A stretch of 64,000 nucleotides of DNA from Candidatus Anstonellaceae archaeon (GTDB taxonomy: Archaea; Micrarchaeota; Micrarchaeia; Anstonellales; Anstonellaceae), in contig JAWAEW010000002.1 of NCBI GenBank assembly GCA_038891035.1, positions 22,476 through 86,475 of the forward strand, written 5' to 3'. Of the stretch, positions 1,174-42,338 are shown piece after piece; the stretch's first letter is position 1, and every line of letters begins with the position of its first letter. Made by a program: the position numbers and the translations under genes. The notes beneath the pieces were generated by a model that was given only the letters and a program-made list of their open reading frames with translations, made no database searches and was not told the DNA's origin.

Positions 1174-1371
1174 CAGATCCTCCTCCCAACTACTGGCTTA
1201 ATATTTAAATGTTATTTTTTATGTCAAATTATGTTATGTTGTAAAATTTTATAAAACGTATAGTTAAACCGTCGAGAAAGATTAATTTTATTGGAAGAAG
1301 CAAAGCTTCGGTGTTGCGACTGATTTAAAGCGAAACGGTGCTTCAAGCCGCAAGCCGCGAAAAAAATGAGC

Positions 1372-1474
1372 GCCGACGAGGAGATTTGAACTCCTAAGCC
1401 CAAAAGGGCACTAGATTCCTCGCAGAATCTGAAGATCTCGAGTCTAGCGCATTACCAGATTCTGCCACGTCGGC
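1372..1474 (-). tRNA. tRNA-Ser (anticodon CGA) with ~20-nt intron at canonical 37/38 position
   Basis: Hand-folded from reverse complement: acceptor GCCGACG/CGTCGGC, 3-bp D-stem with 11-nt D-loop, anticodon stem CTAGA/TCTAG, loop CTCGAG[intron]A, long variable arm GCCC-TTTT-GGGC, T-arm AGGAG-TTCAAAT-CTCCT. No encoded CCA. Confidence 0.7.
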
Positions 1475-4481: not shown

Positions 4482-6380
4482 CTAAAGCCTTTGGATGATT
4501 TGGGTTTTGACACGATTGATGAAATCGTCAATTAAAACATCGTTTTCTATTTTGCCATCTCTGTGGCGTATTGCAAGCTTGCCTGAATCGAGCTCTTTTT
4601 GCCCTATTACAAGCATATATGGAATTTTTTCAAGCTGAGCCGCTCGGATTTTAGCACCTATAGTCTCTTGCTTGCAATTAGCCTCTGCCCTAATCCCTTG
4701 GGACTTCATTTTTTCTGCTAAAGTAAGTGCAAAATCATTGAATCTGTCTGAAACAGGCAAAAGAGCTACTTGGACTGGAGAAAGCCAAACTGGGAACTTG
4801 CCTGCATAGTGCTCAACCATCACACCTAGAAATCTTTCAATGCTGCCAAGTATTGCTCTGTGTAAAAGGACGCAAGTGTGCATTTTTCCATCTGGGCCTT
4901 CATATTCACACTTGAACCGCGCAGGCATTTGGAAGTCAACCTGAATAGTGGAAAGTTGCCAGCTTCTGCCTATTGCATCTTTGAAGCGAAAGTCTATCTT
5001 GGGTCCGTAAAATGCACCATCCCCAGGATTTATTTCGTATGGGATATTATTCTTTTTTAGGGCAGTTTCGAGGTGTCTCTCTGCTGCGTCCCATTGCTCA
5101 AGAGTTCCCATATATTTTTCTGGCCTGGTTGAAAGATAAGCTTTGTATTCGACTTTAAACGTGTCATTATAAACAAACTTGACGAAATCTAGCATTCCAT
5201 CTATTTCCTGGCCGATTTGTTCAGGTGTACAAAATATATGAGCATCGTCCATGCAAAGCTTTCGTACACGGGTCATCCCTCCTAAAGCCCCTCGCACCTC
5301 ATTTCTGTGAAGCATGCAAAAATCTGCAATTCTTAGGGGAAGGTCGCGGTAAGAATGTGCTTCCATGTTGTAAATTAAACAGTGCGAAGGGCAGTTCATT
5401 GGCTTGAGCGAGAATTCTTGGCCATCCACTTCAAGCAAGAACATATTCTCTTTATAGTAATCCCAATGACCAGATTTGATCCAAAGCTCCTTATTGAAAA
5501 GTTGAGGGGTTATAACCTCTTTGTATCCTCTTTTTATGTATTGTTCTCTCAAAAAGGCAAACAGTTCATTTGCAATAATTGTGCCTTTTGGCAGAAAAAA
5601 TGCGCTTCCAGGACTCCATTCATGAAAAGTGAATAGCTTAAGCTCTTGGCCAAGGCGCCGGTGGTCCCTTTTTTCTGCTTCCTCAAGCATTTTTAGATAC
5701 TCTTCCAATTGGCTCTTTTGAGGGAAGGAAATGCCGTATATTCTTTGAAGTGACTCGCGCGAAGCATCTCCCCTCCAGTATGACGATGAGACCTTTGTAA
5801 GCTTAAAAGCCTTAATTAAGCCTGTTGAAGGGAGATGTGGGCCTCGGCACAAATCATACCACTTGCCAGAGTAATACACACTATGCTGCCCATCCGGAAT
5901 CTCTTCGATAAGCTCTAACTTAAATTTGTTGTCTGCAAAGAGCCTTTTTGCCTCATCTTTTGAAAGCTCTCGGCGCACAAATTTTTGATTTTCATTAACA
6001 ATTCGTTCCATTTCCTTTTCTATCTTCGCCAAATCTTCAATACCAATTGGAGGCAAATCGGCAAAATCATAATAAAAGCCATCCTCTATAGGCGGACCTA
6101 TAGTTGGCTTTGCATTTGGATAAAGGCTAACGACTGCCTGCGCAAGGACGTGTGCTGATGAGTGCCAAAAAACTTCTTTTCCTTCTTTGGAGTCGAATGT
6201 GATTGCCTTAAAGGCGCATTCTTGTGGCAAAAGGGCAGAAAGGTCTACCAGCTTCCCATCAATTTGCGCTGCAACACTTGCCTTAAGCAAGCTCTTGCTT
6301 ATTTCAGCAATAGCATCTGCCGCCGTGGAACCTTCAGGCACTTCAATTGAAGAACCGTCTGGAAGGCGAAGTTTCGGCAT
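4482..6380 (-). CDS. thrS: threonyl-tRNA synthetase, bacterial-type architecture (TGS + SAD + class II core + anticodon-binding)
   Basis: 632 aa. N-terminal TGS-like MPKLRLPDGS, HSSAHVLAQA (the HxxxH of the second additional domain), RDHRRLGQELKLF, and class II motifs. Confidence 0.9.
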   Translation of the reverse strand: MPKLRLPDGSSIEVPEGSTAADAIAEISKSLLKASVAAQIDGKLVDLSALLPQECAFKAITFDSKEGKEVFWHSSAHVLAQAVVSLYPNAKPTIGPPIEDGFYYDFADLPPIGIEDLAKIEKEMERIVNENQKFVRRELSKDEAKRLFADNKFKLELIEEIPDGQHSVYYSGKWYDLCRGPHLPSTGLIKAFKLTKVSSSYWRGDASRESLQRIYGISFPQKSQLEEYLKMLEEAEKRDHRRLGQELKLFTFHEWSPGSAFFLPKGTIIANELFAFLREQYIKRGYKEVITPQLFNKELWIKSGHWDYYKENMFLLEVDGQEFSLKPMNCPSHCLIYNMEAHSYRDLPLRIADFCMLHRNEVRGALGGMTRVRKLCMDDAHIFCTPEQIGQEIDGMLDFVKFVYNDTFKVEYKAYLSTRPEKYMGTLEQWDAAERHLETALKKNNIPYEINPGDGAFYGPKIDFRFKDAIGRSWQLSTIQVDFQMPARFKCEYEGPDGKMHTCVLLHRAILGSIERFLGVMVEHYAGKFPVWLSPVQVALLPVSDRFNDFALTLAEKMKSQGIRAEANCKQETIGAKIRAAQLEKIPYMLVIGQKELDSGKLAIRHRDGKIENDVLIDDFINRVKTQIIQRL

Positions 6381-6447: not shown

Positions 6448-7485
6448 TTATGCAAGCGCCCCGACAAAACCACCTATAACTGTTTTACAGATATAGAAGA
6501 TGAAAAGAGCAGCAAGTGCAAGTGGTGGAAAATATTTTAGTCCAAAAAGTAATTTCCCCTCCGCAATTACTCCTACTAAAATAGAAGTCAATATTGCTGT
6601 TCCTACAATGATCACTATGGTAAGATCATCGATAAATTTGATGTCAAGCTTAACCTTTGGCGTGGAAAAGCCACCTATCATGCTTTGGCTGGCACCAGTG
6701 CCGATATTAGACTGTATTTTGGTGAAAACTGCAAGAAATTGAGAAGAAATTGCAAGAAGCAGTGGCAATCCAAAAACCAATATGAAAACTATAAAAATTG
6801 CATAAGTCTTGGTATTGACAATCATTTGCTTTCGCAGTTCTTCTGTTTCTCTAATTTCTTCTGCCGAAGTCTCAAGTAGATAGGCCAGCTTTCCACCTGA
6901 GCGCAAGCCGTTCTCAAAAAACAAAATTGTCCGCCGCAGGATTGAACTGTCGATTGTAGCTGTTAGTTGGCGCAATGCATCTGCAAATGATTCGCTTCCT
7001 AAAGATAAGGATGAAACATAAAGGATTTCTGACTGCAGGGGTCCAAATTCAGGCCTTGCCGCGGCTTGAAATGCAGCAAAAGGGGTCATGCCAGAGCGCA
7101 TGTTTGCTGCCACCATCAAAAGAAAATCCGGAAGGACGGCGTCCACTCTTTGAGTTCTTTCAGTTATAAGATAATAAAGGTGCATATAGATCAAGATTGC
7201 AGCAGCCAAAGCAAAGAGAATGCCCAGCCCAAAGCTTATGACAAGTTTCCCAGCCAAGGTCGGCGGATTAAGGATGGGGTATGCAGATAGGTCAAAAAAA
7301 CGGAAAATGCTGACTGGAAGAAGAGCACCAACAATTCCAAATAAGATAACTATAAGAAGACGGGAGCCAAGCCAAAGTTCTGGATTTGTTTCTATGCCAG
7401 CATAAGCAAGAAGCTGCGAGATTTTGTCTTTTGGGCGTGGCTTGAAAAATGTTGAAAATCGTTTTTCAACTAAATATTTTTTCAT
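6448..7485 (-). CDS. type II secretion/type IV pilus platform protein, TadC/FlaJ-like (T2SSF domain)
   Basis: 345 aa polytopic membrane protein with a cytoplasmic T2SSF-like segment (LPDFLLMVAANMRSGMTPFAAFQAA...). Confidence 0.6.
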   Translation of the reverse strand: MKKYLVEKRFSTFFKPRPKDKISQLLAYAGIETNPELWLGSRLLIVILFGIVGALLPVSIFRFFDLSAYPILNPPTLAGKLVISFGLGILFALAAAILIYMHLYYLITERTQRVDAVLPDFLLMVAANMRSGMTPFAAFQAAARPEFGPLQSEILYVSSLSLGSESFADALRQLTATIDSSILRRTILFFENGLRSGGKLAYLLETSAEEIRETEELRKQMIVNTKTYAIFIVFILVFGLPLLLAISSQFLAVFTKIQSNIGTGASQSMIGGFSTPKVKLDIKFIDDLTIVIIVGTAILTSILVGVIAEGKLLFGLKYFPPLALAALFIFYICKTVIGGFVGALA

Positions 7486-7492
7486 AGAACCA

Positions 7493-8407
7493 CTAATCGC
7501 TAAACAGGCTTGGTCTTTTCATTTTGACGTAAGCAATGATGGCCATCTGACCTAAAAATCCAATTCCAACAACAGCTGAAAGAACTTCTGGTGTAACACC
7601 AAGCATCCCAAATACTGAAAAAATTACGAGGACGGTTGTTCCTATAGTAGGGAGTACGGCTGCAACCATCAGATATATCAGAATTATGAAGTTGAGTTCT
7701 GCATTGAATGATTTGAAAAGCGAAAACTGGTAGTCTACCAGCAATTTGACTATGCTTCGAAGGGTAGAGGACAGATTAGCGCCTGCTCTAATTGCAGTAA
7801 CGAGTTGCCATGAGACCTTTTTGAGATAGACCGACTGAGTCTTAATGGCCATATTTTCCAGTTCTTCTAAAAGAGGACTTCCTCCCCTAACGTTATTTGC
7901 AACTTCTTTAAATGCCGGCCCTACGTACTTGTAGTTTGAGTTTCCGATGTTTTCTATCGCATTGAAAAGCGGTATTCCAGAATTCACCTGTATTAGCATA
8001 TCACGCATGACAAAAATAAGCTCATGGTCTATCTTTGCTGCAATGCTCCTTGCAATAAGGCGAGGGAAAGCCAAATGAAGCAGAAGGAAAAAAAGAAAAC
8101 TGATTGCAAAAGAAAGGAATATTATAAGACCTTTAACAGGTGAAGGAAGAGTAGGGCTCAGCGTTGCAATTACGCCCACGACAATAGATATAAGTGCGGA
8201 CCAAATTGCGGCTGAAACTGCCGCAACTCCACAATAATATTCTGCCGGAAATTCAAGACCTATAGATCTTAGGTCATATCTTATTGATGGGTAAAATGCA
8301 AGGACTTTTAAGCCGATACCTTTCAGTCGCGCTCCTAAAGTGGGGACTGATGAGATTGGTAAAAGCATGACCGGAATGCGAACCGGCTGAGTTGTCATAA
8401 GAATCAC
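7493..8407 (-). CDS. type IV pilus platform protein, TadB/FlaJ-like (T2SSF domain)
   Basis: 304 aa membrane protein with a T2SSF-like segment (IFVMRDMLIQVNSGIPLFNAIENIG...). Separate gene, 8 nt from the downstream paralog. Confidence 0.6.
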   Translation of the reverse strand: MILMTTQPVRIPVMLLPISSVPTLGARLKGIGLKVLAFYPSIRYDLRSIGLEFPAEYYCGVAAVSAAIWSALISIVVGVIATLSPTLPSPVKGLIIFLSFAISFLFFLLLHLAFPRLIARSIAAKIDHELIFVMRDMLIQVNSGIPLFNAIENIGNSNYKYVGPAFKEVANNVRGGSPLLEELENMAIKTQSVYLKKVSWQLVTAIRAGANLSSTLRSIVKLLVDYQFSLFKSFNAELNFIILIYLMVAAVLPTIGTTVLVIFSVFGMLGVTPEVLSAVVGIGFLGQMAIIAYVKMKRPSLFSD

Positions 8408-8409
8408 GG

Positions 8410-10140
8410 CTATTTTTTACTTCCAATAGCTCGCTTGGCTATTTCTAAGATTTCATTTGGCTTGCTGTAATAAAGAGACATTATTCGGCCTACTGACTCC
8501 ATATCAGAAAGCTTGTTCTCAATCATCCATCTTATAATAGTGGCCCTGTTCTTTATATCTTGGTATATTTCCTCTTTGGTCATGCCTGTATGAAGGTTAA
8601 TTTCCTTGAGGTATTTGTTTGGCTCGCCTACCATTTCAAATGTATCAGTGCGTGGGCGCCATCTGTAAATTACATTGGTTGTTATTTCCTCGTCTTTGGC
8701 ACCTGGAACTATTTCGCAAATTTCCAAGGTTCTCCTAACATTCTTCCTCCTATCACGATATTGGACTACAATAAGGTTGACTGCTTCGAGGTCAGATGGA
8801 GGAAGGCTGATTGGGGGGCTAGTAAGCCTTCTTATAGCCTGCATCCCCGTATCAGCGTGCAAAGTTGCTGCAACAGAGTGGCCTGTGTGCATAGCCTCGA
8901 ACAATACTTCAGCTTCTCTTTGCCTTCTCATTTCACCAAGCAAGATTCTATCTGGCCGCATACGAAGCGAGGTAACCATCAAATCAAGCATTGTAACTTC
9001 ACCTAAGCCTTCTGCATTTGGATTTCGAGTTAAAAGAGGTACCCAGTTCCACTGGTAATGTGGCAGCATAAGCTCTCTGGTATCCTCTATTGTGACAATA
9101 CGCTGATTTGGAGGAATAAATGATGCCAGTGCGTTCAAAGCTGTAGTTTTTCCGGATGCTGTGCCGCCTGCAACTAAGATGTTCATTTCATAATGTATTG
9201 CCTGCCACAGCATTCCTGCCATTTCCGGTGTCATGGAGTAGCCTGGTTCACCCACAAGATTTACAATTGTCCATGGATTTCTTGCAAAGCGCCTAATTGT
9301 AATTGTGTTCCCATGTGCAGAAATCGGTGCAAGAGTAGAGCAAACTCTATCTCCGGTTTCAAGCCTAGCATCCAGTATTGGTGTTAAGTTTGCAATTTGT
9401 CTCCCAACTCGGCGTGCAATTTGGGAAGAATAATTGAAGATAGATTCTTCGTCTGGCATGTAAATATTTGACTTAAGCCAGCCAAACTTGCGATGATATA
9501 CTCCAATTGGGGTTTTTGAATTGTTAATAATAATTTCCTCAAGCCAGTCATCGTGGTTGATAATCTCTATCTCTCCTAACCCAAACAACTTATGCAAAAG
9601 CATTCCAACCAGAACTTCATCAACCTCCTTTCCGAGGTGGAACTGCCGAATATAATTGGTTATCGTAAGCTTGAATTCCTCGCGTGCTTTGGCTGCTTTT
9701 TCAATATCTGAAACATCAGACTGTGCACCGGCAGGTATTGCCCGCAAAAGTTCGTCTTTTATGAGGTCCAGAAAAATCTTGGTTGCAGTACCAAACTCAA
9801 CTAAGGTCAGGATATAGTGCTTTTCTCTTTCAGTATCTAATATCATTACACTTGCTGGCACTCCATCTGCTGAAAACATATAGCTGGCCAACACCTTTCC
9901 CTTTGTTGCACCGACTTCGGGCTTTGGTGGCTCAGCCGGCAGGATCCTGAAAGATACTGTTGGCTTTTCAGTTATGCTTAATGGGTAATGCAAATCTAAG
10001 ACCCCGCCCTTTTCAAGCACTGCACAGATAAGCTCAACGGTTTCTACCGGCATGTGTAGATATTTTGAGAGAATTTCAACACTGATATTTTTTTTGCGCT
10101 GTGCAAGTGAAACAAGCTGGTCTATCTTTGTCTCAAACAT
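8410..10140 (-). CDS. type IV pilus/archaellum-family assembly ATPase (FlaI/TadA/VirB11 superfamily)
   Basis: Walker A VAGGTASGKTT, Asp box IVTIEDTRE, His box, and an N-terminal extension, as in archaeal FlaI-like ATPases. Confidence 0.85.
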   Translation of the reverse strand: MFETKIDQLVSLAQRKKNISVEILSKYLHMPVETVELICAVLEKGGVLDLHYPLSITEKPTVSFRILPAEPPKPEVGATKGKVLASYMFSADGVPASVMILDTEREKHYILTLVEFGTATKIFLDLIKDELLRAIPAGAQSDVSDIEKAAKAREEFKLTITNYIRQFHLGKEVDEVLVGMLLHKLFGLGEIEIINHDDWLEEIIINNSKTPIGVYHRKFGWLKSNIYMPDEESIFNYSSQIARRVGRQIANLTPILDARLETGDRVCSTLAPISAHGNTITIRRFARNPWTIVNLVGEPGYSMTPEMAGMLWQAIHYEMNILVAGGTASGKTTALNALASFIPPNQRIVTIEDTRELMLPHYQWNWVPLLTRNPNAEGLGEVTMLDLMVTSLRMRPDRILLGEMRRQREAEVLFEAMHTGHSVAATLHADTGMQAIRRLTSPPISLPPSDLEAVNLIVVQYRDRRKNVRRTLEICEIVPGAKDEEITTNVIYRWRPRTDTFEMVGEPNKYLKEINLHTGMTKEEIYQDIKNRATIIRWMIENKLSDMESVGRIMSLYYSKPNEILEIAKRAIGSKK

Positions 10141-11709: not shown

Positions 11710-14700
11710 TTAGGAGTTCAGTGTTGTAATGCTAACAGTAAAACCTTGGTTGTACAATGCACGTATTTCATCTTCTGAGAGTGCTCTTTTGAATATTTGG
11801 ACTTCATCGATTATGCCTTCATAAGGCTTATTGAGTGAAGGAGAATTTCCTATAATTAGTCTTGGGTAAGTCTGGCCCAGATCTCCTGAAACATCACCAG
11901 TTGCATAAAGTACTCCGTTAATGTAAATAAAGCCGACCCCATCTTTTCTGCTTACTGTGATATGGGTCCACTCGTCTGTGGCTAATTCGATGGGCGATGA
12001 TATTACTTTATTTGCTGCAATAAAGTTCAGATAACCATCTGACAACTCAAGGGCGAAGCCAGAATTCTGAATTTGGTTACTTATGATTTGGCTGGAGATT
12101 ACTGATTTGGGCTTAACCCATAAAGAAACTGTGAAATCATCTCTGCCCTGGAGCACAGGCGATGGGACCGAAAGATGGGAGAATAGAGATGTGAAGTTGT
12201 ATGCTCCACCTATTTTACCAAATGGAGTCCAGTTTGCTGAAACATTTGCATGAAGCAGAAGAGGAGAGTAATCAACCGATATTCCTTCTACTTCTCTATA
12301 ATCGAATGGCAATGAAAGTAGCGCATCAGGAAGCTGCCTTTTTAGGCGAAGCTTGGCATTATAATTTGCAGTAATATTGCTAAATGAAGCGGATGGCTTA
12401 TAAAAGACATCAAGGTCAAGGCTGCACTTGTCTTGATATAAGCCTTTGTAGTGATTTTCGATTTCCCGTTCAGATAGAGCTCTCTTATAGAACCTTATTT
12501 CATCAATCAGTCCTCTGAAACCGTTGCTTCCTGAACTATCAGATGCACCTATAAAGAATGGGGACGATGAGTTTATCCTCAAAAGGCTGAACTGACCTGA
12601 TGCAACCGATTTATCATCAAGATAGATGTTGTATTCGCCTAATCTTCTAACAGAAACTGACACCATATGCCAATTCCCATCTGATAAATCGAGTAGATGA
12701 CTTATCTGTGAAGACTGGCCACTTCCATTTGCACTATAAAATGAGATGTTGAGGAAATTAGCAGGATTCAAAAACCAATCAATCCCCTGTGCTGCCCCAA
12801 ATTCCTGTCCTAGCTGATAAAATAGCCTTGCAAAGCTTCCTTGGCCGGTATAAGGCCTTATCCATACAGACATAGTAAAATCATTGATCTCTGTAACTGA
12901 AACATCGTCTAGATAGACTACTTGGTTGTTTAGAGGTGTATAAAACCGAAGTTCAATGACTGCATTTTGAAGTGTAGAAAATGGTTGTGTGATCCTTTCA
13001 AAAGTAGTGCTTAGCTGCTTTGTGATAAATATGTCTGCACCGGGATTCAATGAATTCCACTGCCCGGAAGGCGCCAAGTACATTTGGTTTTGCACATCAA
13101 CAATTGCATATCTAATCGCATCATTTTGAAGCTCGCCTCTCGCCCAAAACTCAAGCAAATAATTCCTGTTTCCTTTCAGTGCTGAATAAAGAGCTGAACT
13201 GTAAATATACGACGAGGGATCGCTAGAGTAGATTTTAACTGAAGTCGAGCCTGACTTTACTATGTTGTGCTCTGGCTCAAATATGCCATTTCCTTGCTTT
13301 ATCCAATTGTTGAAAAGGAAGGATTGGCTGCCTACACCTGGAGGGATAATGCAGTACTTTACAGATCCGCTTGTTCTTGTTACATTGCACACTGCATTTG
13401 GATCACAGCAGGGATGAACATCGTCACAGCGAGAATTGGTTGGGAAGCAGGTTGTGCATCGCCCATAATCTTGTATTCCCTCAAAAAAGAAGGGAAGTTT
13501 TTTTATCTTGAAAAAGTAGTCGCGAGAATAGGTTTGCTGCTCTTGTTGTGCAACTGTATTTACAAGGTCACAGAAAAGCCCCTCGCAGCATTGCGTGTCA
13601 TTAGTGCAGAGGGCACCTTGCTGACCGCATGTAGGAAGAGGAGGCGCACATCTGAAGGTTTGTTCCCCGTCAAAAAGACACCTGTTTGAGCAGCATTCTG
13701 AGTGATTCCTACAGGTATGGTTGAGAGGAAGGCAGTCCACACACTTTGAGAAATTAGCAGAGGTGCTCAGTAGATCGCAAAGCCCGGAGCAACATTGACT
13801 GTTTTCAGTGCAATTGGTGGTGCTGTTCGTTTGAATGCAAACTGAGCATATCTTTTGGGATGAGCCTGCGGGTGCTGCACAAATACTGCATGTCTGCGGG
13901 CAGTCTGAAGAAATGGTGCAGCTCTGGTTGCATCCTATTCCGCATCGTGGTTGGCTTTCTTCATCTATAAAGCATCTACCACTGCAACATTCGTTGCTGG
14001 TTCCATCTTGGCAAGAGGCAAGTAACTGCCCATTTTGAAGGCAACAGATTCCGTTTAAACAGATTGAGGGGGGGCAACAAGGGATTTTGTTGTCTCCTGA
14101 ACACGGCTGGGAAGCATTTGCGCAATTTAGGTTTGTTAATTCAGCTACATTAGTAGGATTAGAACGATCAGACTTGGCAACAAGATTAGGATTGTTTTTG
14201 GCTTCTGCTTGTATGTATAATTGAACGCTTGTACCATTTTCAAACGTCGAAGTGTTCAATGGTTCTTGCTTACGATACAAAAACAAAATTGGTATTATGT
14301 TGCCCGGCCTCTGCGCAACAAAGACATATGAAATATTAATATATGGTGTGCTGTCAGGACAATTTTGTATGCAGTATACGTTGGACCCTCGAATAACAGT
14401 TGGTGTGGGTGAAATAATTGGAGTGGGTGGTTTTTTAGGTTTGCAAACTCCATTCTCGCATCTTAATCCTATCGTTTTATCGCTATCACAGCAATCAGAA
14501 TCCTTAGTACATTGTTGCCCTCCTTGTGAGCATGCAGAACACCTTCCATTAATGCAAACTGAATTCGAACAGCAATCAGAATCTCTGAGACAGCCATAAG
14601 TCCCACGTGGCCAGCAAGGAACACACTTGCCATCTCTCATCATATAGAACTTAACTGAGCTTGAAGACGGGATTGCAGACCATGGTTGGCGCTCCTCTTC

Positions 14701-15468
14701 ACCTAAAAGGCATTTGCCGGAACAGCATTCAGAATGATAAGAACAGTTTTGCCCATTAGGAATGCATGAACATATGCCATTTATGCACATGGAACTTATA
14801 CAGCAATCAGCATCTGAGCTGCAAGGCCCGTATCCTCTTGGCCAGCATGAAACACATGTACCATTGAGGGGAGTTTCGACGAGCTTTGCAAGCCCAGAAA
14901 AAAGATTTTCTGATGATAAAAACGCCCCACCATCATTGTTGGTGCGTATAAGACATTTGGAAGAGCAGCAATCATTATTTGATTGACAGACTGCACCTTG
15001 TCCTTTGCATGTGGATGTGCTATCCCAGTGACAACCCACTGCTACACATACAGTTTCGTTATAAATGGAAGTGCATGGTAGAGATGGCCCACTGCTTACA
15101 TCATCACATGGAAATGCTGTAAAAGCATTAAATCTGCAATACCCTCCTGCAATATTGCATGCACCAGCCGGATTGTGACTTTTAGAGGCACAGTCGGCTT
15201 CATTTAGAGAAGAACAGAGAGTTGGAGCTGTACCGCTTGCACATGTACAATTGTTTGTCACTAGCTCATATCTCAGATTGCAATATCCTCGCAATTCAAA
15301 TTCGTAGCAAACCGAGGGATAATCGATCGGACCGCATCCGTCGGATGTACACCATGGGTGATTTAGGGAAGTACAGCTTACGTTAGGAGAATTTTGGTTT
15401 TGCGGCACGCAGCCAGCAAAAATGGCTGAAGAAAGCAATCCAAACAGCAACAAAGACAACATTCTCAT
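11710..15468 (-). CDS. 1252-aa surface protein: lipobox signal, repeated knottin-like 6-Cys modules, Pro/Thr linker, two C-terminal LamG_3 (ConA-like lectin) domains
   Basis: MRMLSLLLFGLLSSAIFAGC lipobox. At least 6 repeats with the pattern C-x6-C-x5-CC-x4-C-x4-C (e.g. CWPRGTYGCLRDSDCCSNSVCINGRC). Two LamG_3 signature motifs (IDEIRFYKRALSEREI and IDEVQIFKRALSEDEI). Confidence 0.7.
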   Translation of the reverse strand: MRMLSLLLFGLLSSAIFAGCVPQNQNSPNVSCTSLNHPWCTSDGCGPIDYPSVCYEFELRGYCNLRYELVTNNCTCASGTAPTLCSSLNEADCASKSHNPAGACNIAGGYCRFNAFTAFPCDDVSSGPSLPCTSIYNETVCVAVGCHWDSTSTCKGQGAVCQSNNDCCSSKCLIRTNNDGGAFLSSENLFSGLAKLVETPLNGTCVSCWPRGYGPCSSDADCCISSMCINGICSCIPNGQNCSYHSECCSGKCLLGEEERQPWSAIPSSSSVKFYMMRDGKCVPCWPRGTYGCLRDSDCCSNSVCINGRCSACSQGGQQCTKDSDCCDSDKTIGLRCENGVCKPKKPPTPIISPTPTVIRGSNVYCIQNCPDSTPYINISYVFVAQRPGNIIPILFLYRKQEPLNTSTFENGTSVQLYIQAEAKNNPNLVAKSDRSNPTNVAELTNLNCANASQPCSGDNKIPCCPPSICLNGICCLQNGQLLASCQDGTSNECCSGRCFIDEESQPRCGIGCNQSCTISSDCPQTCSICAAPAGSSQKICSVCIQTNSTTNCTENSQCCSGLCDLLSTSANFSKCVDCLPLNHTCRNHSECCSNRCLFDGEQTFRCAPPLPTCGQQGALCTNDTQCCEGLFCDLVNTVAQQEQQTYSRDYFFKIKKLPFFFEGIQDYGRCTTCFPTNSRCDDVHPCCDPNAVCNVTRTSGSVKYCIIPPGVGSQSFLFNNWIKQGNGIFEPEHNIVKSGSTSVKIYSSDPSSYIYSSALYSALKGNRNYLLEFWARGELQNDAIRYAIVDVQNQMYLAPSGQWNSLNPGADIFITKQLSTTFERITQPFSTLQNAVIELRFYTPLNNQVVYLDDVSVTEINDFTMSVWIRPYTGQGSFARLFYQLGQEFGAAQGIDWFLNPANFLNISFYSANGSGQSSQISHLLDLSDGNWHMVSVSVRRLGEYNIYLDDKSVASGQFSLLRINSSSPFFIGASDSSGSNGFRGLIDEIRFYKRALSEREIENHYKGLYQDKCSLDLDVFYKPSASFSNITANYNAKLRLKRQLPDALLSLPFDYREVEGISVDYSPLLLHANVSANWTPFGKIGGAYNFTSLFSHLSVPSPVLQGRDDFTVSLWVKPKSVISSQIISNQIQNSGFALELSDGYLNFIAANKVISSPIELATDEWTHITVSRKDGVGFIYINGVLYATGDVSGDLGQTYPRLIIGNSPSLNKPYEGIIDEVQIFKRALSEDEIRALYNQGFTVSITTLNS

Positions 15469-17049: not shown

Positions 17050-18090
17050 TTATTTTCCACGATACCAGCCACGAATGATAACAAAACCATAATCATTTTG
17101 AAGCTGATTGGTATTTTTTGCAAATGGGACAGTTAGAGATTGGATCTCTCCACCTCCATACAGGCATCCAGGTCTGTTGACCATGTATAAAATATTTTCA
17201 GGATTGCTGTAAAGAAGCTGCACTTCTTGATGAGAAAGAACACGGTCGTAAAGGCGCACTTCATCCAAAATGCTGTCGCTGTTGAATCCTATTTGGAGAG
17301 GGTTGTTATTACTATTTGGTGCCATGGCAAAATCATCAGTGTCTGCCGCAGTTCCATCTACATAAAGAGTAGCCACTCCTTCTATATCAAAAGTTGCAAC
17401 GATGTGATGCCAGTTGCCATCAGCAATATATGGTCCCTCCAACCATGATTCATCAGATGAAAATATGTGGAAAAAGACGTTTCCTTCTTCAGTAATGCCA
17501 ACAGAATATTTTTCCTCAAATGAAAATAATAATTGTTGATTGCCAATATTTTGACTTTTAACCCATAGAGAGACTGAAAAACTTTCTTGCTCAAAAAGAG
17601 GAGAAAACTGAACTGTTCCGTATGTTGTAGAAGAGAAATGAATGGCCCCGCCCGCTTTCCCATTTTGGACAAATATAGGGGATCCGATTAAAATCCCAAA
17701 AAGTCTGTTTGGAGTGGAGTCATAGATGATCGAACCTGCCACTTCATCAAGCTTCCAATATCCTACAAGACCATCCGCAAGCTGATTGCTAAAACCAACC
17801 ACCTCTATGCAAATTGAAGGAGAAGTCGCACTTAACACCTCTCTTATGGAAGCCGTGGTCTGTGTTAGGTCTTGTGGAGGAGAGAGTAGGCCCTTTTTTG
17901 AAAGCACTGTTGCAACATCTTGTAAGTAAGTTCTCAAAAGCTGGGTTTTAAAGTCTGAATCTTGAGTGTTGCCATAGAAAGTAAAGGCAATAAAGGTGGC
18001 CAGTATAATCATGAATATTGAGATTGCTGCATCAAGACTGAGGAATACTCCCCTTAGCCTCGAGTTAGAGATTTTCATTTTTTCTTCCAT
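17050..18090 (-). CDS. pilin-like protein with C-terminal LamG_3 lectin domain
   Basis: N-terminus SRLRG|VFLSLDAAISIFMIILATF is pilin-like. C-terminal motif ILDEVRLYDRVLSHQEVQLLY is the LamG_3 signature. Confidence 0.55.
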   Translation of the reverse strand: MEEKMKISNSRLRGVFLSLDAAISIFMIILATFIAFTFYGNTQDSDFKTQLLRTYLQDVATVLSKKGLLSPPQDLTQTTASIREVLSATSPSICIEVVGFSNQLADGLVGYWKLDEVAGSIIYDSTPNRLFGILIGSPIFVQNGKAGGAIHFSSTTYGTVQFSPLFEQESFSVSLWVKSQNIGNQQLLFSFEEKYSVGITEEGNVFFHIFSSDESWLEGPYIADGNWHHIVATFDIEGVATLYVDGTAADTDDFAMAPNSNNNPLQIGFNSDSILDEVRLYDRVLSHQEVQLLYSNPENILYMVNRPGCLYGGGEIQSLTVPFAKNTNQLQNDYGFVIIRGWYRGK

Positions 18091-27464: not shown

Positions 27465-27578
27465 GAGGGCATTAAACTCTCAAAGAATATTTAATACTTG
27501 CAGAAATTTGAATGCTGCCTTTGTGCTTTCTGGAAACATTTAAATACTTGTAAGCTGAATTTTGTTGCGGCGATCAGT

Positions 27579-28640
27579 ATGGACAGCCTTGTGAAGTCCG
27601 TGCTAGGAGAGCAAGAGCCAGCTCCGACAGAAAATTTTGGCTCAGACCAGATTAAGATTGTGACAGTTGGAGTAGGCGGCGGCGGAAACAACACTATAAA
27701 CCGCCTTATTCGCTCGGGAGTCAAGGGGTGCGAGCTAATTGCGGTGAATACCGACAGGCAGCACCTCAATATGATTCACGAGAAAGCCAAGAAAATCCTT
27801 ATCGGTAAGACTATTACCAAAGGACTTGGCGCAGGCGGATACCCAGAAACCGGTGCAAAGGCCGCAGAAATTGACAGACCACTGATAGAAAAGGAGCTTG
27901 AAGGGGCCCACTTGTGCTTTATTTGCGCAGGTATGGGCGGAGGCACAGGCACTGGAGCAGCACCTGTCATTGCAGAGATTGCAAAGGAGCAAGGTGCTAT
28001 CGTAGTTGCCATGGTGACCTATCCGTTCAACCTCGAGCGCGCAAGGCGGGCAAAGGCAGACGAAGGTATTGCAAAGCTTCGCAAGCACGTCGATTCTGTA
28101 ATAGTGCTTGACAATAACAGGCTGGTGAAACTTGTTCCAAATCTGCCGATGAATGAGGCTTTTGCAGTAGCAGACGAGATTCTTGCAAAGGCAGTCGGTG
28201 GATTAGTCTGGACAATTACACAGCCATCATTGATTAACATTGATTTTGCAGATGTCCGCTCTATTGTGCAGGGTGGAGGAGTCGGCTTCATTGCAGTAGG
28301 AGAAGGGAAAGGCACTGACAAAGTCCGCGGAGCAGCAGAAGGTGTGCTTAAGAACAAGCTGCTGGACGTGGACTATGAAGGAGCAAACGGCGCGCTGATT
28401 CACATCTCAGGCGGAGCAGATCTCACACTTGGGGATGCCATTAAAGCAGGTGAAATAATCACCGAAAAGATGGATCCGCAAGCAAATGTCAAGTGGGGTG
28501 CAAGACTCATACCTGGCTATGACGGCAAGCTTGAAATAGTCGCCATAGTGACTGGGGTGAAAGGCGCAAATGTTTTTGGTGCATCTTCAGATGAACCAAG
28601 AAAAGAAGTCTCCTACTCTGACATAGAGATAATTGGATAG
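27579..28640 (+). CDS. ftsZ: cell division GTPase FtsZ (paralog 1)
   Basis: GGGGNN tubulin signature, GGGTGTG T4 loop, NLE. Start set at MDSLVKS (ATG 27579) rather than the upstream alternative start used by the track. Confidence 0.9.
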   Translation: MDSLVKSVLGEQEPAPTENFGSDQIKIVTVGVGGGGNNTINRLIRSGVKGCELIAVNTDRQHLNMIHEKAKKILIGKTITKGLGAGGYPETGAKAAEIDRPLIEKELEGAHLCFICAGMGGGTGTGAAPVIAEIAKEQGAIVVAMVTYPFNLERARRAKADEGIAKLRKHVDSVIVLDNNRLVKLVPNLPMNEAFAVADEILAKAVGGLVWTITQPSLINIDFADVRSIVQGGGVGFIAVGEGKGTDKVRGAAEGVLKNKLLDVDYEGANGALIHISGGADLTLGDAIKAGEIITEKMDPQANVKWGARLIPGYDGKLEIVAIVTGVKGANVFGASSDEPRKEVSYSDIEIIG

Positions 28641-28856: not shown

Positions 28857-29909
28857 ATGGGGGTTGGAAATATGTTTGAAAATGCGGCAGGTTCTCGGAA
28901 CGATGAATTAATTTCAAACGAGAATATTCGTATTGCAGTCGTAGGTGTTGGGGGAGGCGGTTGCAATACTGTTGACCGCATGACAAGAAACGGCATACGC
29001 TCTGCACAAACGATTGCAATAAACACAGATCAGCTCCACCTGAAAATAGTGCAAGCCCACAAGAGAGTCTTAATTGGATCTACAATTACTAAGGGACTTG
29101 GAGCTGGAGGTTTCCCTGAAGTCGCAGAAAAATGTGCAGAAGTTTCGAAAGAAAAGCTGAGAGAAGTGCTTTCGGAGAAAGAGCTCGTCTTCGTGTGTGC
29201 AGGTATGGGCGGAGGCACAGGCACTGGCGCATCACCTGTAATTGCGCAAATTGCAAAAGAGCAAGGAGCGATCGTTGTATCTGTTGTAACGATGCCATTC
29301 AGACTTGAAAGAGCAAGGATGCAGAAGGCTTTGTGGGGACTGCAGCGCCTTGCAGCTCACTCTGATACCGTGATTGCAATTGAGAATGACCGCCTTGCAA
29401 AATATGTTCCTAATTTGCCAATCAATGAGGCATTCAACCTGGCGGATGCAATAACAAGCAAGGCAATAACAGGAATTGCGGACACCATCATGCTTCCTTC
29501 TCTTATGAACATTGATTTTGCAGACGTAAAATCTGTAATGGAAAACGGAGGCTTTGCACTCCTTTCGATGGGGGAAGGAAGAGGCCCCGACAGGATCGAC
29601 CAAGTAGTAAGAAACACTCTCGAGCAGCCTTTGCTTGACATCTCAACAGAAGGCGCAAAGGGAGCACTTTTGCACATAAGCGGAGGGCCACAGCTTACAC
29701 TTGGAGAAGGCATCCAAATTGGAGAAAAAATTTCCGAGAGCTTTGACTTGAACGCAGACGTCAAAATAGGAGCCAGGCTAGATCCATCATTAGGCGACAC
29801 GATAACCTGCGCTGCAATTATTACCGGCCTGAAGAATCCGTACGTTCAGCCGAGGCCGCCAGAAGAAGAAAAGAAAGTGATAGAGCTGGATGCAATTTCA
29901 TATCTTTAG
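28857..29909 (+). CDS. ftsZ: cell division GTPase FtsZ (paralog 2)
   Basis: GVGGGGCNTV and GGGTGTGASPVIAQIAKEQGAIVV. Distinct C-terminal region from paralog 1. Confidence 0.9.
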   Translation: MGVGNMFENAAGSRNDELISNENIRIAVVGVGGGGCNTVDRMTRNGIRSAQTIAINTDQLHLKIVQAHKRVLIGSTITKGLGAGGFPEVAEKCAEVSKEKLREVLSEKELVFVCAGMGGGTGTGASPVIAQIAKEQGAIVVSVVTMPFRLERARMQKALWGLQRLAAHSDTVIAIENDRLAKYVPNLPINEAFNLADAITSKAITGIADTIMLPSLMNIDFADVKSVMENGGFALLSMGEGRGPDRIDQVVRNTLEQPLLDISTEGAKGALLHISGGPQLTLGEGIQIGEKISESFDLNADVKIGARLDPSLGDTITCAAIITGLKNPYVQPRPPEEEKKVIELDAISYL

Positions 29910-31793: not shown

Positions 31794-31894
31794 CGCCGAC
31801 GAGGAGATTTGAACTCCTAAGCCCGAAAAGGGCACCAGATTTCCTGCTTTCGCAGTCTCAAGTCTGGCGCATTACCAGGTTCTGCCACGTCGGC
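31794..31894 (-). tRNA. tRNA-Ser (anticodon UGA) with ~16-nt intron at 37/38
   Basis: Same architecture as the tRNA at 1372-1474. Anticodon stem CCAGA/TCTGG, loop CTTGAG[intron]A, long variable arm GCCC-TTTTC-GGGC, T-arm AGGAG-TTCAAAT-CTCCT. Confidence 0.7.
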
Positions 31895-35183: not shown

Positions 35184-35269
35184 GCCCCTGTAGCTCATCG
35201 GTAGAGCGGTTGTCTTGTATCCATTCGCAAGAAAACAACAGGTAGCGAGTTCAATTCTCGCCGGGGGCT
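35184..35269 (+). tRNA. tRNA-Thr (anticodon UGU) with ~14-nt intron at 37/38
   Basis: Acceptor GCCCCTG/CGGGGGC, D-arm GCTC-ATCGGTAG-AGC, anticodon stem GTTGT/ACAAC, loop CTTGTA[intron]A, T-arm GCGAG-TTCAATT-CTCGC. Confidence 0.7.
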
Positions 35270-38016: not shown

Positions 38017-38156
38017 AGTAATCAGGTGAATTTCACCAAATGAAATAATAAAAGTTCCGCTTGGAAAATGTTGGTTATGAAAAGAGATATTTTTGAGTTT
38101 TTACTTATGAGGATGTCTGATGCTGTAACAATACTGCCGAATATTTTTTAAAAAAG

Positions 38157-38256
38157 TGCGGAGAGGAGGATTTGTTCTGCTATAATTGAACCCCCGCAGC
38201 CACTAGGGCACAGGGTCCTAAGCCCTGCGCATTTGACCAGGCTCTGCCATCTCCGC
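38157..38256 (-). tRNA. tRNA-Leu (anticodon UAG) with ~14-nt non-canonical intron in the T-loop
   Basis: Acceptor GCGGAGA/TCTCCGC, anticodon arm CAGGG-CTTAGGA-CCCTG, long variable arm. T-stem GGGGG...CCTCC encloses 21 nt (TTCAATT plus a 14-nt insert) instead of a 7-nt loop. The upstream half is closely similar to the intron-less tRNA-Leu at 42253. Confidence 0.55.
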
Positions 38257-38305
38257 AAAAATAATCTGAAGGGAATACATTAAAAACAATGCATTCTAAT
38301 CCTCT

Positions 38306-42252: not shown

Positions 42253-42338
42253 TGTGGGGGAAGGGATTTGAACCCTCGCAGCCCTAAAGGCACCAGCCCC
42301 TCAAGCTGGCGCATTTGACCAGGCTCTGCCACCCCCAC
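42253..42338 (-). tRNA. tRNA-Leu (anticodon GAG), intron-less, type II
   Basis: Acceptor GTGGGGG/CCCCCAC, anticodon arm CCAGC-TTGAGGG-GCTGG, 15-nt variable arm, T-arm GAGGG-TTCAAAT-CCCTT. Confidence 0.8.

What the first reader, a model, noticed from the sequence alone, without database searches (positions are those of the whole stretch)
38157..38256. tRNA-Leu(UAG) with an apparent 14-nt intron in the T-loop
All arms fold normally, but the T-stem GGGGG/CCTCC encloses 21 nt rather than 7 (TTCAA-TTATAGCAGAACAA-AT or an equivalent placement). The 5' half matches the intron-less tRNA-Leu(GAG) at 42253-42338 closely. Together these support a true non-canonical intron near position 58/59-59/60 rather than a pseudogene.
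Basis: seen in the sequence. Interest (0 to 1): 0.6.

Follow-up and report, generated by a model that had tools for sequence, protein, structure and literature searches.

The report
Short T-loop intron in archaeal tRNA-Leu
This is a real tRNA-Leu(UAG) gene from a tiny DPANN archaeon (Micrarchaeota), split by a 14-base intron in its T-loop; this kind of misplaced intron is already documented and shown to be spliced in the related ARMAN-2, so it is a genuine but expected feature.

Summary
On the minus strand, 38256..38157 encodes a class II tRNA-Leu(UAG). Its T-stem GGGGG/CCUCC encloses 21 nt instead of 7. Rfam scores it 43.7 bits. ARAGORN misses it, but calls a clean 86-nt tRNA-Leu(tag) once UUAUAGCAGAACAA (38185..38172) is removed.

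The junction folds into a relaxed bulge-helix-bulge (hBH/BHL) motif: G53UUC56 pairs with intron GAAC, and 3-nt bulges AAU and AAA flank that helix. Cutting after the second bulge base gives UUCAA|AU, so the intron lies at 58/59.

The host is a Micrarchaeota genome. 24 distinct orthologous genes carry T-loop introns of 14-154 nt at 56/57, 58/59 or 59/60, and intron-free alleles have the same exons. Exons show compensatory changes. In the ten 58/59 introns only the last six bases (GAAC-AA) are conserved. The window's tRNA-Thr has a canonical 14-nt intron with the same 1+7+4+2 layout.

Precedent: ARMAN-2 pre-tRNA-Cys has a 13-nt T-loop intron at 59/60 that its epsilon2 endonuclease cleaves in vitro (PMC3239211).

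Verdict: a new member of a known kind. Splicing itself and the endonuclease of this genome were not tested. The most interesting by-product is fast intron turnover and intron sequence shared between different tRNAs.

The parts
38157..38256 (-). Complete pre-tRNA-Leu(UAG) gene, 100 nt (5' end at 38256, discriminator A73 at 38157; CCA is not encoded)
   Evidence: Rfam RF00005 43.7 bits; sequence read; ARAGORN calls tRNA-Leu(tag) after in-silico splicing
38186..38256 (-). 5' exon, precursor nt 1-71: acceptor 5' strand, D arm, anticodon arm (anticodon UAG at 38220..38218), long variable arm, T-stem 5' strand GGGGG, and T-loop U54 U55 C56 A57 A58
   Evidence: 70/70 identical to L002 over the part compared
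38172..38185 (-). 14-nt intron UUAUAGCAGAACAA at position 58/59. Layout is 1 nt (third base of the 5' bulge) + 7-nt cap UAUAGCA + 4 nt GAAC (pairs with G53-C56) + 2 nt AA (first two bases of the 3' bulge)
   Evidence: BHB scan and folds; removing it gives a canonical tRNA; its 3' hexamer GAACAA is conserved in 10 distinct family members
38157..38171 (-). 3' exon, precursor nt 86-100: A59 U60, T-stem 3' strand CCUCC, acceptor 3' strand UCUCCGC, A73
   Evidence: 16/16 identical to L002 over the part compared
38188..38191 (-). Exon strand of the central 4-bp helix of the splicing motif: G53 U54 U55 C56
   Evidence: Pairs with intron GAAC; the constrained fold is -4.6 against an MFE of -4.7 kcal/mol
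38174..38177 (-). Intron strand of the central helix: GAAC
   Evidence: 1.5-2.0 bits per position across family A, while neighbouring intron positions carry <=0.64 bits. L002 has GAGC, which keeps a U.G pair
38185..38187 (-). 5' splice-site bulge/loop bases A57 A58 | U (cut after A58). It opens into the 7-nt cap, so this side is a loop rather than a strict bulge
   Evidence: inner helix of only 1 bp; cut-after-second-bulge-base rule inferred from the A13-dU14-A15 substrate in the PMC12397907 supplement
38171..38173 (-). 3' splice-site bulge A A | A59 (cut before A59), lying between the central helix and the T-stem
   Evidence: The outer helix is 4 bp in a register shifted by one (G52.U60, G51-C61, G50-C62, G49.U63). 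Alternatively, the native register gives a 5-nt bulge
38279..38286 (-). TATA-like element TTTTTAAT at -30 to -23 from the tRNA 5' end (candidate archaeal promoter)
   Evidence: Sequence read. The assignment is an inference from the known archaeal TATA position and was not tested
38150..38155 (-). T6 run starting 2 nt after A73 (candidate archaeal terminator)
   Evidence: similar T-runs follow the orthologues. This is an inference

Best explanation
The locus is a functional tRNA-Leu(UAG) gene of a Candidatus Micrarchaeota (DPANN) archaeon, interrupted by a 14-nt protein-spliced intron between T-loop positions 58 and 59.

Proposed mechanism: in the precursor, G53-U54-U55-C56 pairs with the intron bases GAAC instead of closing the T-loop. 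This makes a 4-bp helix. On the 3' side it is flanked by the bulge A-A-A59 and the T-stem. On the 5' side it is flanked by A57-A58-U, which opens into a 7-nt cap. That is a relaxed bulge-helix-bulge motif (hBH, also called bulge-helix-loop). The archaeal splicing endonuclease cuts after the second base of each bulge. In this lineage the enzyme is expected to be the broad-specificity epsilon2 type. An RtcB-type ligase then joins the exons, restoring the 7-nt loop UUCAAAU and an 86-nt class II tRNA. CCA is added afterwards.

Shown here: the gene, the insert, the pairing potential and its exact geometry, conservation of the junction element, selection on the exons, and intron presence/absence among orthologues. 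Inferred: cleavage, ligation, the enzyme type and expression.
For: 1. A tRNA model match covers exactly these coordinates, and all arms are intact. ARAGORN calls tRNA-Leu(tag) only after the 14 nt are removed.

2. Only one splice register gives a BHB-compatible geometry: central helix GUUC/GAAC, bulges AAU and AAA, product UUCAA|AU. That fold is within 0.1 kcal/mol of the MFE of the T-arm.

3. The host is Micrarchaeota: EF-1alpha is 96% identical to MAG SKW47, and all 80 related loci are Micrarchaeota or allied DPANN.

4. 24 distinct orthologous tRNA-Leu(UAG) genes carry T-loop introns. Ten are at 58/59 (14-154 nt), eleven at 56/57, and two at 59/60 with a strict hBHBh' motif. One type (L018) has a position I could not resolve. 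Intron-free alleles with the same exons have the loop UUCAAAU.

5. In the 58/59 family only the last six intron bases GAAC-AA are conserved (1.5-2.0 bits against <=0.64 bits upstream).

6. Spliced exons of 10 distinct intron-bearing genes are 98.7% paired, and 6 pairs change on both sides. The covariation score is 0.247 against 0.109 in shuffles (0/500 reach it) and <=0.117 in slid registers.

7. Window versus L002: exons 86/86 identical, flanks 55-59%, neighbouring coding DNA 66-77%.

8. Internal control: the window's tRNA-Thr(UGU) has a 14-nt intron at the canonical site with the same 1+7+4+2 layout (U|CCAUUCG|CAAG|AA). tRNA-Ser(UGA) has a strict BHB motif. 4 of 6 tRNA genes in the window are interrupted.

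9. The ~60-nt module of some Leu T-loop introns also sits in an anticodon-loop intron of tRNA-Ser(UGA) in L006 (z 17-30).

10. CUA and CUG are 19% of Leu codons in the window's genes.

11. [quoted passage not shown]
Against: No RNA data were available, so splicing is not shown. The motif is relaxed. The inner helix is a single U-A pair. The outer helix needs a one-base register shift with two G.U pairs, or else a 5-nt bulge, so a strict-specificity endonuclease would not be expected to cut it.

The GUUC/GAAC pairing alone is only weakly significant. My own back-of-envelope estimate is a 6-10% chance for a random 14-mer over three registers; this was not computed by a tool. The case therefore rests on conservation across the family.

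The endonuclease type of this genome is therefore assumed from ARMAN-1/2. Registers 56/57 and 57/58 give the same mature sequence, so sequence alone cannot exclude them. The orthologue sample is not phylogenetically independent.
Confidence: 0.87

Rival explanations
1. A decaying tRNA pseudogene: a formerly intact tRNA-Leu(UAG) that suffered a 14-nt insertion in its T-loop and no longer functions.
For: ARAGORN does not recognise it. Its Rfam score (43.7 bits) is the lowest of the six tRNAs in the window. I could not check whether another tRNA-Leu(UAG) exists elsewhere in the genome.
Against: Exons are 86/86 identical to L002 while flanks are 55-59% identical. Stems show compensatory changes across intron-bearing orthologues. 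Insertions in the same loop occur in 24 distinct orthologues, with a conserved junction hexamer that is complementary to the exon. Promoter-like and terminator-like signals are in place. No other tRNA-Leu(UAG) lies in the window or in the syntenic loci.
Confidence: 0.04
2. A genuine EndA-spliced intron, but cut in another register (56/57 or 57/58), or via a fold other than the GUUC/GAAC helix. The A-run makes three registers give the same mature loop.
For: UUC|..|AAAU, UUCA|..|AAU and UUCAA|..|AU all yield UUCAAAU (read directly from the sequence). Relatives do use 56/57 and 59/60. The unconstrained MFE of the T-arm is marginally lower than the BHL fold (-4.7 against -4.6 kcal/mol).
Against: Only the 58/59 register gives a 4-bp helix with 3-nt bulges. 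The 3' hexamer GAAC-AA is exactly what that register requires, and it is the only conserved part of ten family-A introns. L002's change to GAGC keeps the pairing.
Confidence: 0.07
3. The insert is not removed, and the tRNA works with an enlarged 21-nt T-loop.
For: No direct evidence. Splicing has not been observed for this gene.
Against: Orthologues carry inserts of up to 154 nt in the same loop, which cannot fit the T-loop/D-loop elbow known from established tRNA structure. Intron-free alleles have the standard 7-nt loop. The insert ends in a conserved splice-motif element.
Confidence: 0.01
4. An assembly or sequencing artefact created the 14 extra bases.
For: The window comes from a metagenome-type assembly. 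The only exact second copy (L001, Logan SRR27730023) may come from the same sample.
Against: The identical sequence appears in a separately built assembly. Related but different introns occur at the same place in many independent MAGs and metagenomes.
Confidence: 0.01

Closest known systems
ARMAN-2 (Candidatus Micrarchaeum acidiphilum) pre-tRNA-Cys(GCA), with a 13-nt intron at 59/60 in a relaxed hBH/BHL motif that epsilon2 EndA cleaves in vitro (Fujishima et al. 2011, PMC3239211; Miyata et al. 2025, PMC12397907)
   Same: Same phylum-level lineage. Both have a very short intron (13 against 14 nt) inside the T-loop. Both are a relaxed motif with one proper bulge plus a helix and a loop on the other side. 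In both cases the genome has a majority of tRNA genes interrupted (56% in ARMAN-2; 4 of 6 in this window).
   Different: It is a different tRNA (Leu UAG rather than Cys GCA), and the position is one base upstream (58/59 rather than 59/60). Here the central helix borrows G53 from the T-stem, so the outer helix is shifted or shortened. I could not compare sequences because the pre-tRNA-Cys sequence is not in the text I could read. Cleavage of this particular substrate is untested.
Non-canonical BHB introns of Crenarchaeota/Thermoproteales tRNAs and their transposition between tRNA genes (Sugahara et al. 2008 and Fujishima et al. 2010, as summarised in PMC4033280)
   Same: Introns lie outside 37/38 with relaxed HBh'/hBH motifs. 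Presence and absence turn over quickly. Similar intron sequences occur in different tRNA species; here the L006 tRNA-Ser(UGA) intron matches the Leu(UAG) T-loop introns.
   Different: The phylum differs and the enzyme differs ((alpha-beta)2 there, presumably epsilon2 here). The specific intron families are unrelated as far as I tested.
Canonical archaeal 37/38 tRNA introns with a strict hBHBh' motif (for example the window's own tRNA-Ser(UGA) at 31794-31894)
   Same: Same 3-4-3 geometry and the same cut-after-second-bulge-base rule. The window's tRNA-Thr(UGU) 14-nt intron has the same 1+7+4+2 build.
   Different: This intron is in the T-loop, not the anticodon loop. The inner helix is reduced to 1 bp and the outer helix is imperfect, so it fails the strict definition.

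Membership tests
Archaeal protein-spliced (BHB-type) tRNA intron at a non-canonical position | Removing the insert restores a complete canonical tRNA with a 7-nt T-loop | tested here: met
   ARAGORN: none for the precursor, tRNA-Leu(tag) 86 nt for the spliced form. The loop UUCAAAU equals that of intron-free orthologues.
Archaeal protein-spliced (BHB-type) tRNA intron at a non-canonical position | The exon-intron junctions can form a 4-bp helix flanked by bulges (BHB), or a relaxed form lacking one bulge (hBH/HBh'/BHL), with cuts that give the exact mature junction | tested here: met
   GUUC/GAAC with bulges AAU and AAA; product UUCAA|AU. The fold is within 0.1 kcal/mol of the MFE. The definition of the relaxed forms is from PMC3239211.
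Strict hBHBh' motif (substrate of alpha4 / alpha'2 endonucleases) | 3-4-3 geometry with both bulges closed by flanking helices of at least 2 bp in the native register | tested here: not met
   The inner helix is 1 bp. The outer helix forms only in a shifted register with two G.U pairs, or else the bulge is 5 nt.
Archaeal protein-spliced (BHB-type) tRNA intron at a non-canonical position | Junction elements and exons are conserved among orthologues while the intron interior is free to vary; intron presence/absence polymorphism exists | tested here: met
Archaeal protein-spliced (BHB-type) tRNA intron at a non-canonical position | The host genome encodes a splicing endonuclease with broad specificity (epsilon2 or (alpha-beta)2 with a specific loop) | not testable with these tools
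   There is no EndA among the window's large ORFs and no hit in the related DNA I held. The rest of the genome is not available. The epsilon2 type is documented only for ARMAN-1/2 (PMC3239211, PMC4033280).
Archaeal protein-spliced (BHB-type) tRNA intron at a non-canonical position | The intron is actually excised and the exons ligated (RNA evidence or an in vitro assay) | not testable with these tools
   No RNA data or enzyme assay was available.
tRNA pseudogene | Relaxed selection: broken stems, and exon divergence similar to the flanking DNA | tested here: not met
   98.7% of stem cells are paired, with compensatory changes. Exons are 100% identical against flanks at 55-59%.
Self-splicing group I intron in tRNA (bacterial type) | A structured ribozyme of a few hundred nt, usually in the anticodon loop | tested here: not met
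   The insert is 14 nt. No Rfam intron family matches here or in the long relatives.

The most novel reading that the evidence does not exclude
The T-loop of this one orthologous tRNA-Leu(UAG) may be a hot spot of ongoing intron turnover in Micrarchaeota. Three observations point that way. Introns sit at three neighbouring positions (56/57, 58/59, 59/60), range from 14 to 154 nt, and are present or absent on identical exons. A ~60-nt intron module is shared with an anticodon-loop intron of tRNA-Ser(UGA). Dispersed hairpin repeats have colonised the long introns. Together these would indicate active intron transposition or sliding, and repeat-driven intron growth and shrinkage, in a DPANN lineage. 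The window's 14-mer would be the minimal remnant that still carries the recognition element.
Probability: 0.45. Interest if true: 0.5.

Novelty: new member of a known kind. Interest (0 to 1): 0.3.

Why it matters
For annotation: standard tRNA finders miss or mis-bound these genes. ARAGORN found nothing here. Rfam scored the long-intron orthologues only 26.6-40 bits, with the wrong ends. Micrarchaeota MAGs will therefore appear to lack tRNA-Leu(UAG), the only decoder of CUA.

For biology: the gene adds a well-supported natural substrate, 14 nt at 58/59 and close to the minimum size, to the set of relaxed BHB/BHL motifs that broad-specificity splicing endonucleases must handle. The orthologue series gives a natural mutagenesis panel showing which six intron bases matter. 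It also extends to DPANN archaea the evidence that tRNA introns move between genes and positions. None of this changes current understanding of the mechanism.

Tried and rejected
1. Strict BHB in the 59/60, 57/58 and 56/57 registers for the window's intron: no 4-bp helix forms (and inspection).

2. Looking for the splicing endonuclease or RtcB ligase. Pfam scans of 37 window ORFs (including all 30 non-overlapping ORFs of at least 250 aa) found none. The probe is unverified, so this negative result is weak.

3. Known RNA families inside the long introns of relatives, such as C/D-box sRNAs: no Rfam match at E <= 0.1 other than the tRNA itself.

4. Getting the ARMAN-2 pre-tRNA-Cys sequence for a direct comparison: it is not in the text or the supplement I could read.

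5. Homology between family A (58/59) and family B (56/57) intron interiors, as evidence for intron sliding: only one 12-nt identity at the same offset (L084/L114, z 5.2). I treat this as suggestive only.

6. My first automatic extraction of precursors used a wrong offset and ended some long introns too early. This was corrected. L098 remains unresolved.

7. The BHB structure of the L018-type 41-nt intron: no register gave a convincing motif.

Full report
**1. What is in the sequence**

Rfam's tRNA model matches exactly 38157-38256 on the minus strand (43.7 bits, gathering score 29). The match has a large insertion in the T-loop. ARAGORN does not report it.

Read 5'->3' on the minus strand, the gene is:

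GCGGAGA UG GCAG AGCCUGGUCAA AUGC G CAGGG CUUAGGA CCCUG UGCCCUAGUGGCUGC GGGGG UUCAAUUAUAGCAGAACAAAU CCUCC UCUCCGC A

This is a class II tRNA with anticodon UAG, discriminator A73 and a 21-nt T-loop. Deleting UUAUAGCAGAACAA gives an 86-nt sequence that ARAGORN calls tRNA-Leu(tag), with a normal cloverleaf and the T-loop UUCAAAU.

The resemblance to the intron-free tRNA-Leu(GAG) at 42253-42338 is real. Positions 8-30 are identical, and that gene's T-loop is UUCAAAU. A TTTTTAAT element lies at -30 to -23, and a T6 run follows the discriminator. These fit archaeal promoter and terminator conventions, but that is an inference.

**2. Organism and context**

The neighbours are EF-1alpha, ribosomal proteins S2 and L13, RpoD, SecY and a Cbf5/TruB-type pseudouridine synthase. 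EF-1alpha finds 80 genomic loci, essentially all labelled Candidatus Micrarchaeota/Micrarchaeia. The best is 96% identical (L002, MAG SKW47). An identical copy of the tRNA region is on a Logan contig (L001).

Four of the six tRNA genes in the window are interrupted:
- tRNA-Ser(UGA), 31794-31894: a 16-nt intron at 37/38 in a strict hBHBh' motif (CUUG/CAGG, bulges AGA and AAA, outer helix 8 bp).
- tRNA-Ser(CGA), 1371-1474: an intron of about 20 nt in the anticodon loop.
- tRNA-Thr(UGU), 35184-35269: a 14-nt intron at the canonical site.
- The present gene.

**3. The splicing motif**

A scan for two 3-nt bulges on opposite strands separated by 4 bp finds one solution that also gives a 7-nt T-loop:
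- The central helix is G53-U54-U55-C56 paired with intron GAAC.
- The 5' bulge is A57-A58-U and the 3' bulge is A-A-A59.
- The product is GGGGGUUCAA|AUCCUCC, so the intron is 14 nt at position 58/59.

I assumed cleavage after the second bulge base. This agrees with the ARMAN-2 EndA-RNA crystal substrate, where the bulge is A13-dU14-A15 and the 2'-deoxy block is on the second base (PMC12397907 supplement).

With this helix enforced, the T-arm fold is -4.6 kcal/mol against an MFE of -4.7. The motif is relaxed, for two reasons. The inner helix is a single U-A pair closing a 5-nt loop. The outer helix is 4 bp only in a register shifted by one base (G52.U60, G51-C61, G50-C62, G49.U63). In the literature's terms it is an hBH, or bulge-helix-loop (BHL), substrate (PMC3239211; PMC12397907).

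The window's canonical tRNA-Thr intron has exactly the same build, which serves as an internal control:
- Thr: U|CCAUUCG|CAAG|AA
- Leu: U|UAUAGCA|GAAC|AA

**4. Comparative evidence**

I collected orthologous tRNA-Leu(UAG) genes from the syntenic genome loci and from a metagenome scan with the anticodon-arm 22-mer. They fall into these classes:
- **Family A (10 distinct genes):** intron at 58/59, 14-154 nt, form UUCAA|...GAACAA|AU. The window's is the shortest. L002 has 15 nt ending GAGCAA, which keeps a U.G pair.
- **Family B (11 distinct genes):** intron at 56/57, 35-91 nt, form UUC|...GCCCAA|AAAU. The central helix is G51-G52-G53-U54/GCCC, and the inner helix covaries (CAGGGG/CCCCUG, CGCAGG/CCUGUG, GGCUU/AAGCC).
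- **Family C (2 genes):** intron at 59/60, 95 nt, strict hBHBh' motif (UUCA/UGAA, bulges AAC and AAU, with the native 5-bp T-stem as the outer helix).
- **One 41-nt type (L018):** I could not resolve its motif.
- **Intron-free alleles with the same exons (L103, L008, L123 and others):** the loop is UUCAAAU, or UUCGAAU in L120.

In family A the last six intron bases carry 1.5-2.0 bits each. The six bases before them carry <=0.64 bits, and the first twelve intron bases carry <=1.08 bits. Family B behaves the same way for GCCCAA. The only conserved part of these otherwise unrelated introns is therefore the part the motif needs: four bases complementary to the exon plus two bulge bases.

The spliced exons of ten distinct intron-bearing genes keep the cloverleaf. 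98.7% of stem cells are paired and 6 pairs change on both sides. The covariation score is 0.247, against 0.109 +/- 0.018 in shuffles (0 of 500 reach it) and <=0.117 in slid registers.

Between the window and L002, exons are 86/86 identical. Flanks are 55-59% identical and neighbouring coding DNA is 66-77% identical. CUA and CUG are 147 of 781 Leu codons in the annotated genes of the window, so a UAG-anticodon tRNA is needed. These results exclude a pseudogene for practical purposes.

**5. Mechanism and what is not shown**

Most likely, the precursor is cut by the archaeal splicing endonuclease at the two bulge positions and the exons are joined by an RtcB-type ligase. CCA is then added, since it is not encoded.

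Because the motif is relaxed, the enzyme must have broad specificity. In ARMAN-1/2 (Micrarchaeota) this is the three-unit epsilon2 EndA. That enzyme cleaves ARMAN-2 pre-tRNA-Cys, which has a 13-nt intron at 59/60 in an hBH/BHL motif, in vitro (PMC3239211; PMC12397907).

I could not find EndA or RtcB in the window or in the related DNA I held (the probe was weak). So the enzyme of this genome, the cleavage itself and expression are all inferred. Registers 56/57 and 57/58 give the same mature RNA. Only the motif geometry and the conserved hexamer argue against them.

**6. Comparison with what is known, and novelty**

Non-canonical archaeal tRNA introns with relaxed BHB motifs are well documented. 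That includes short T-loop introns in Micrarchaeum (tRNA-Cys at 59/60; tRNA-Pro at 53/54 plus 59/60), with 56% of ARMAN-2 tRNA genes disrupted. They are also well known in Thermoproteales (PMC4033280).

This gene meets every sequence-level criterion of that class. It fails only the strict hBHBh' definition. It is a new member of a known kind: a different tRNA, a neighbouring position (58/59), and near-minimal size. I found no paper describing this particular gene or intron family, but the library is incomplete.

**7. By-products**

The orthologue series shows fast intron turnover within one loop. Both exon types of the GCGGAGA clade (T-stems GGGGG/CCUCC and GUGGG/CCCUC) host both 56/57 and 58/59 introns, and one type also has an intron-free allele.

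A ~60-nt module of the L102, L122 and L121 T-loop introns is also present in the anticodon-loop intron of a tRNA-Ser(UGA) in L006 (local alignment z 29.8, 25.1 and 17.0; 0 of 300 shuffles reach the score). This resembles the intron transposition described for Thermoproteales.

Other long introns contain a tandem hairpin repeat that is also scattered in intergenic DNA of these genomes. Rfam scores the long-intron genes only 26.6-40 bits, with wrong boundaries, so routine annotation will miss them.

**8. Verdict**

The mechanism is known and the surprise for a specialist is modest. Interest is 0.3. My confidence that it is a genuine EndA-type intron is about 0.87.

Noticed in passing
window 1371-1474 (-), 31794-31894 (-), 35184-35269 (+): Three more interrupted tRNA genes: Ser(CGA) with an intron of about 20 nt, Ser(UGA) with a 16-nt strict hBHBh' intron, and Thr(UGU) with a 14-nt intron U|CCAUUCG|CAAG|AA. 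All are in the anticodon loop. The two Ser genes have near-identical exons but different introns. ARAGORN -i mislabels the first as Pro(cgg) and the Thr gene as Ser(tga).
   Followed up: partly
L003, L017, L089, L090, L093, L108, L114-L117, L131 (family B); L009, L109 (family C); L018/L124/L127: Orthologous tRNA-Leu(UAG) genes carry T-loop introns at 56/57 (35-91 nt, ending GCCCAA, with a covarying inner helix) or at 59/60 (95 nt, strict BHB). A 41-nt type has a motif I could not resolve. Both exon types host both 56/57 and 58/59 introns, which implies repeated gain, loss or sliding.
   Followed up: partly
L006, reverse strand of about 5280-5440; L102, L122, L121 introns: A tRNA-Ser(UGA) anticodon-loop intron shares a ~60-nt module (CCCAUAUCCCCUUUCUUU..AAAGAAAGGGG-CUGAGGGCUUCACCCC-AAAGAAA) with tRNA-Leu(UAG) T-loop introns (z 17-30). 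The same intron sequence therefore occurs in different tRNAs at different positions.
   Followed up: partly
L103:1632-1684, L010:13742-13792, L115:4539-4575, L108:5553-5587, L089:387-408; introns of L100 and L091: A tandem hairpin repeat (CUUUUUCGCC..GGCGAAAAAG-GCGCCCCUUUUUGCC..GGCAAAAAGAGGG) is scattered in intergenic DNA of Micrarchaeota contigs and also sits inside the long T-loop introns. It may be a MITE/REP-like element that inflates introns.
   Followed up: partly
L103:5125-5151 and L085 intron nt 76-102: A 27-nt piece of the 154-nt L085 intron is an exact inverted copy of sequence lying 30-60 nt downstream of the intron-free tRNA-Leu(UAG) of L103.
   Followed up: no
L045, about 12170-12375: A class II tRNA with both an anticodon-loop insert and a 61-nt T-loop intron at 59/60 (UUCG/UGAA, bulges AAA and AAU, 5-bp outer T-stem). 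This is a multi-intron tRNA in another Micrarchaeota MAG.
   Followed up: partly
L098, about 1428-1590: A tRNA-Leu(UAG) with a family-B-like intron, but no recognisable T-stem 3' strand before the acceptor strand. It could have a second intron or be a pseudogene; I did not resolve it.
   Followed up: no
L121, L102, L091, L017, L103 and others (exon type 2): The T-stem GUGGG/CCCUC has a U50.U64 mismatch in all members, including the intron-free L103, so the mismatch is a tolerated feature of the mature tRNA.
   Followed up: no
L086, L091, L102, L121, L122: Rfam's tRNA model scores the long-intron Leu(UAG) genes only 26.6-40 bits and bounds them wrongly (about 82-89 nt), apparently by using intron 5' bases (UCCC...) as a false T-stem. 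Routine annotation would miss or truncate them.
   Followed up: partly
window 27498-28640 (+) and 28857-29909 (+); 6448-10140 (-); 11710-15468 (-): Two adjacent FtsZ paralogues; a T2SSE ATPase plus two T2SSF membrane proteins (a pilus/archaellum-type cluster); and a 1252-aa Laminin_G_3/ConA-like surface protein next to a smaller paralogue (17050-18090).
   Followed up: no
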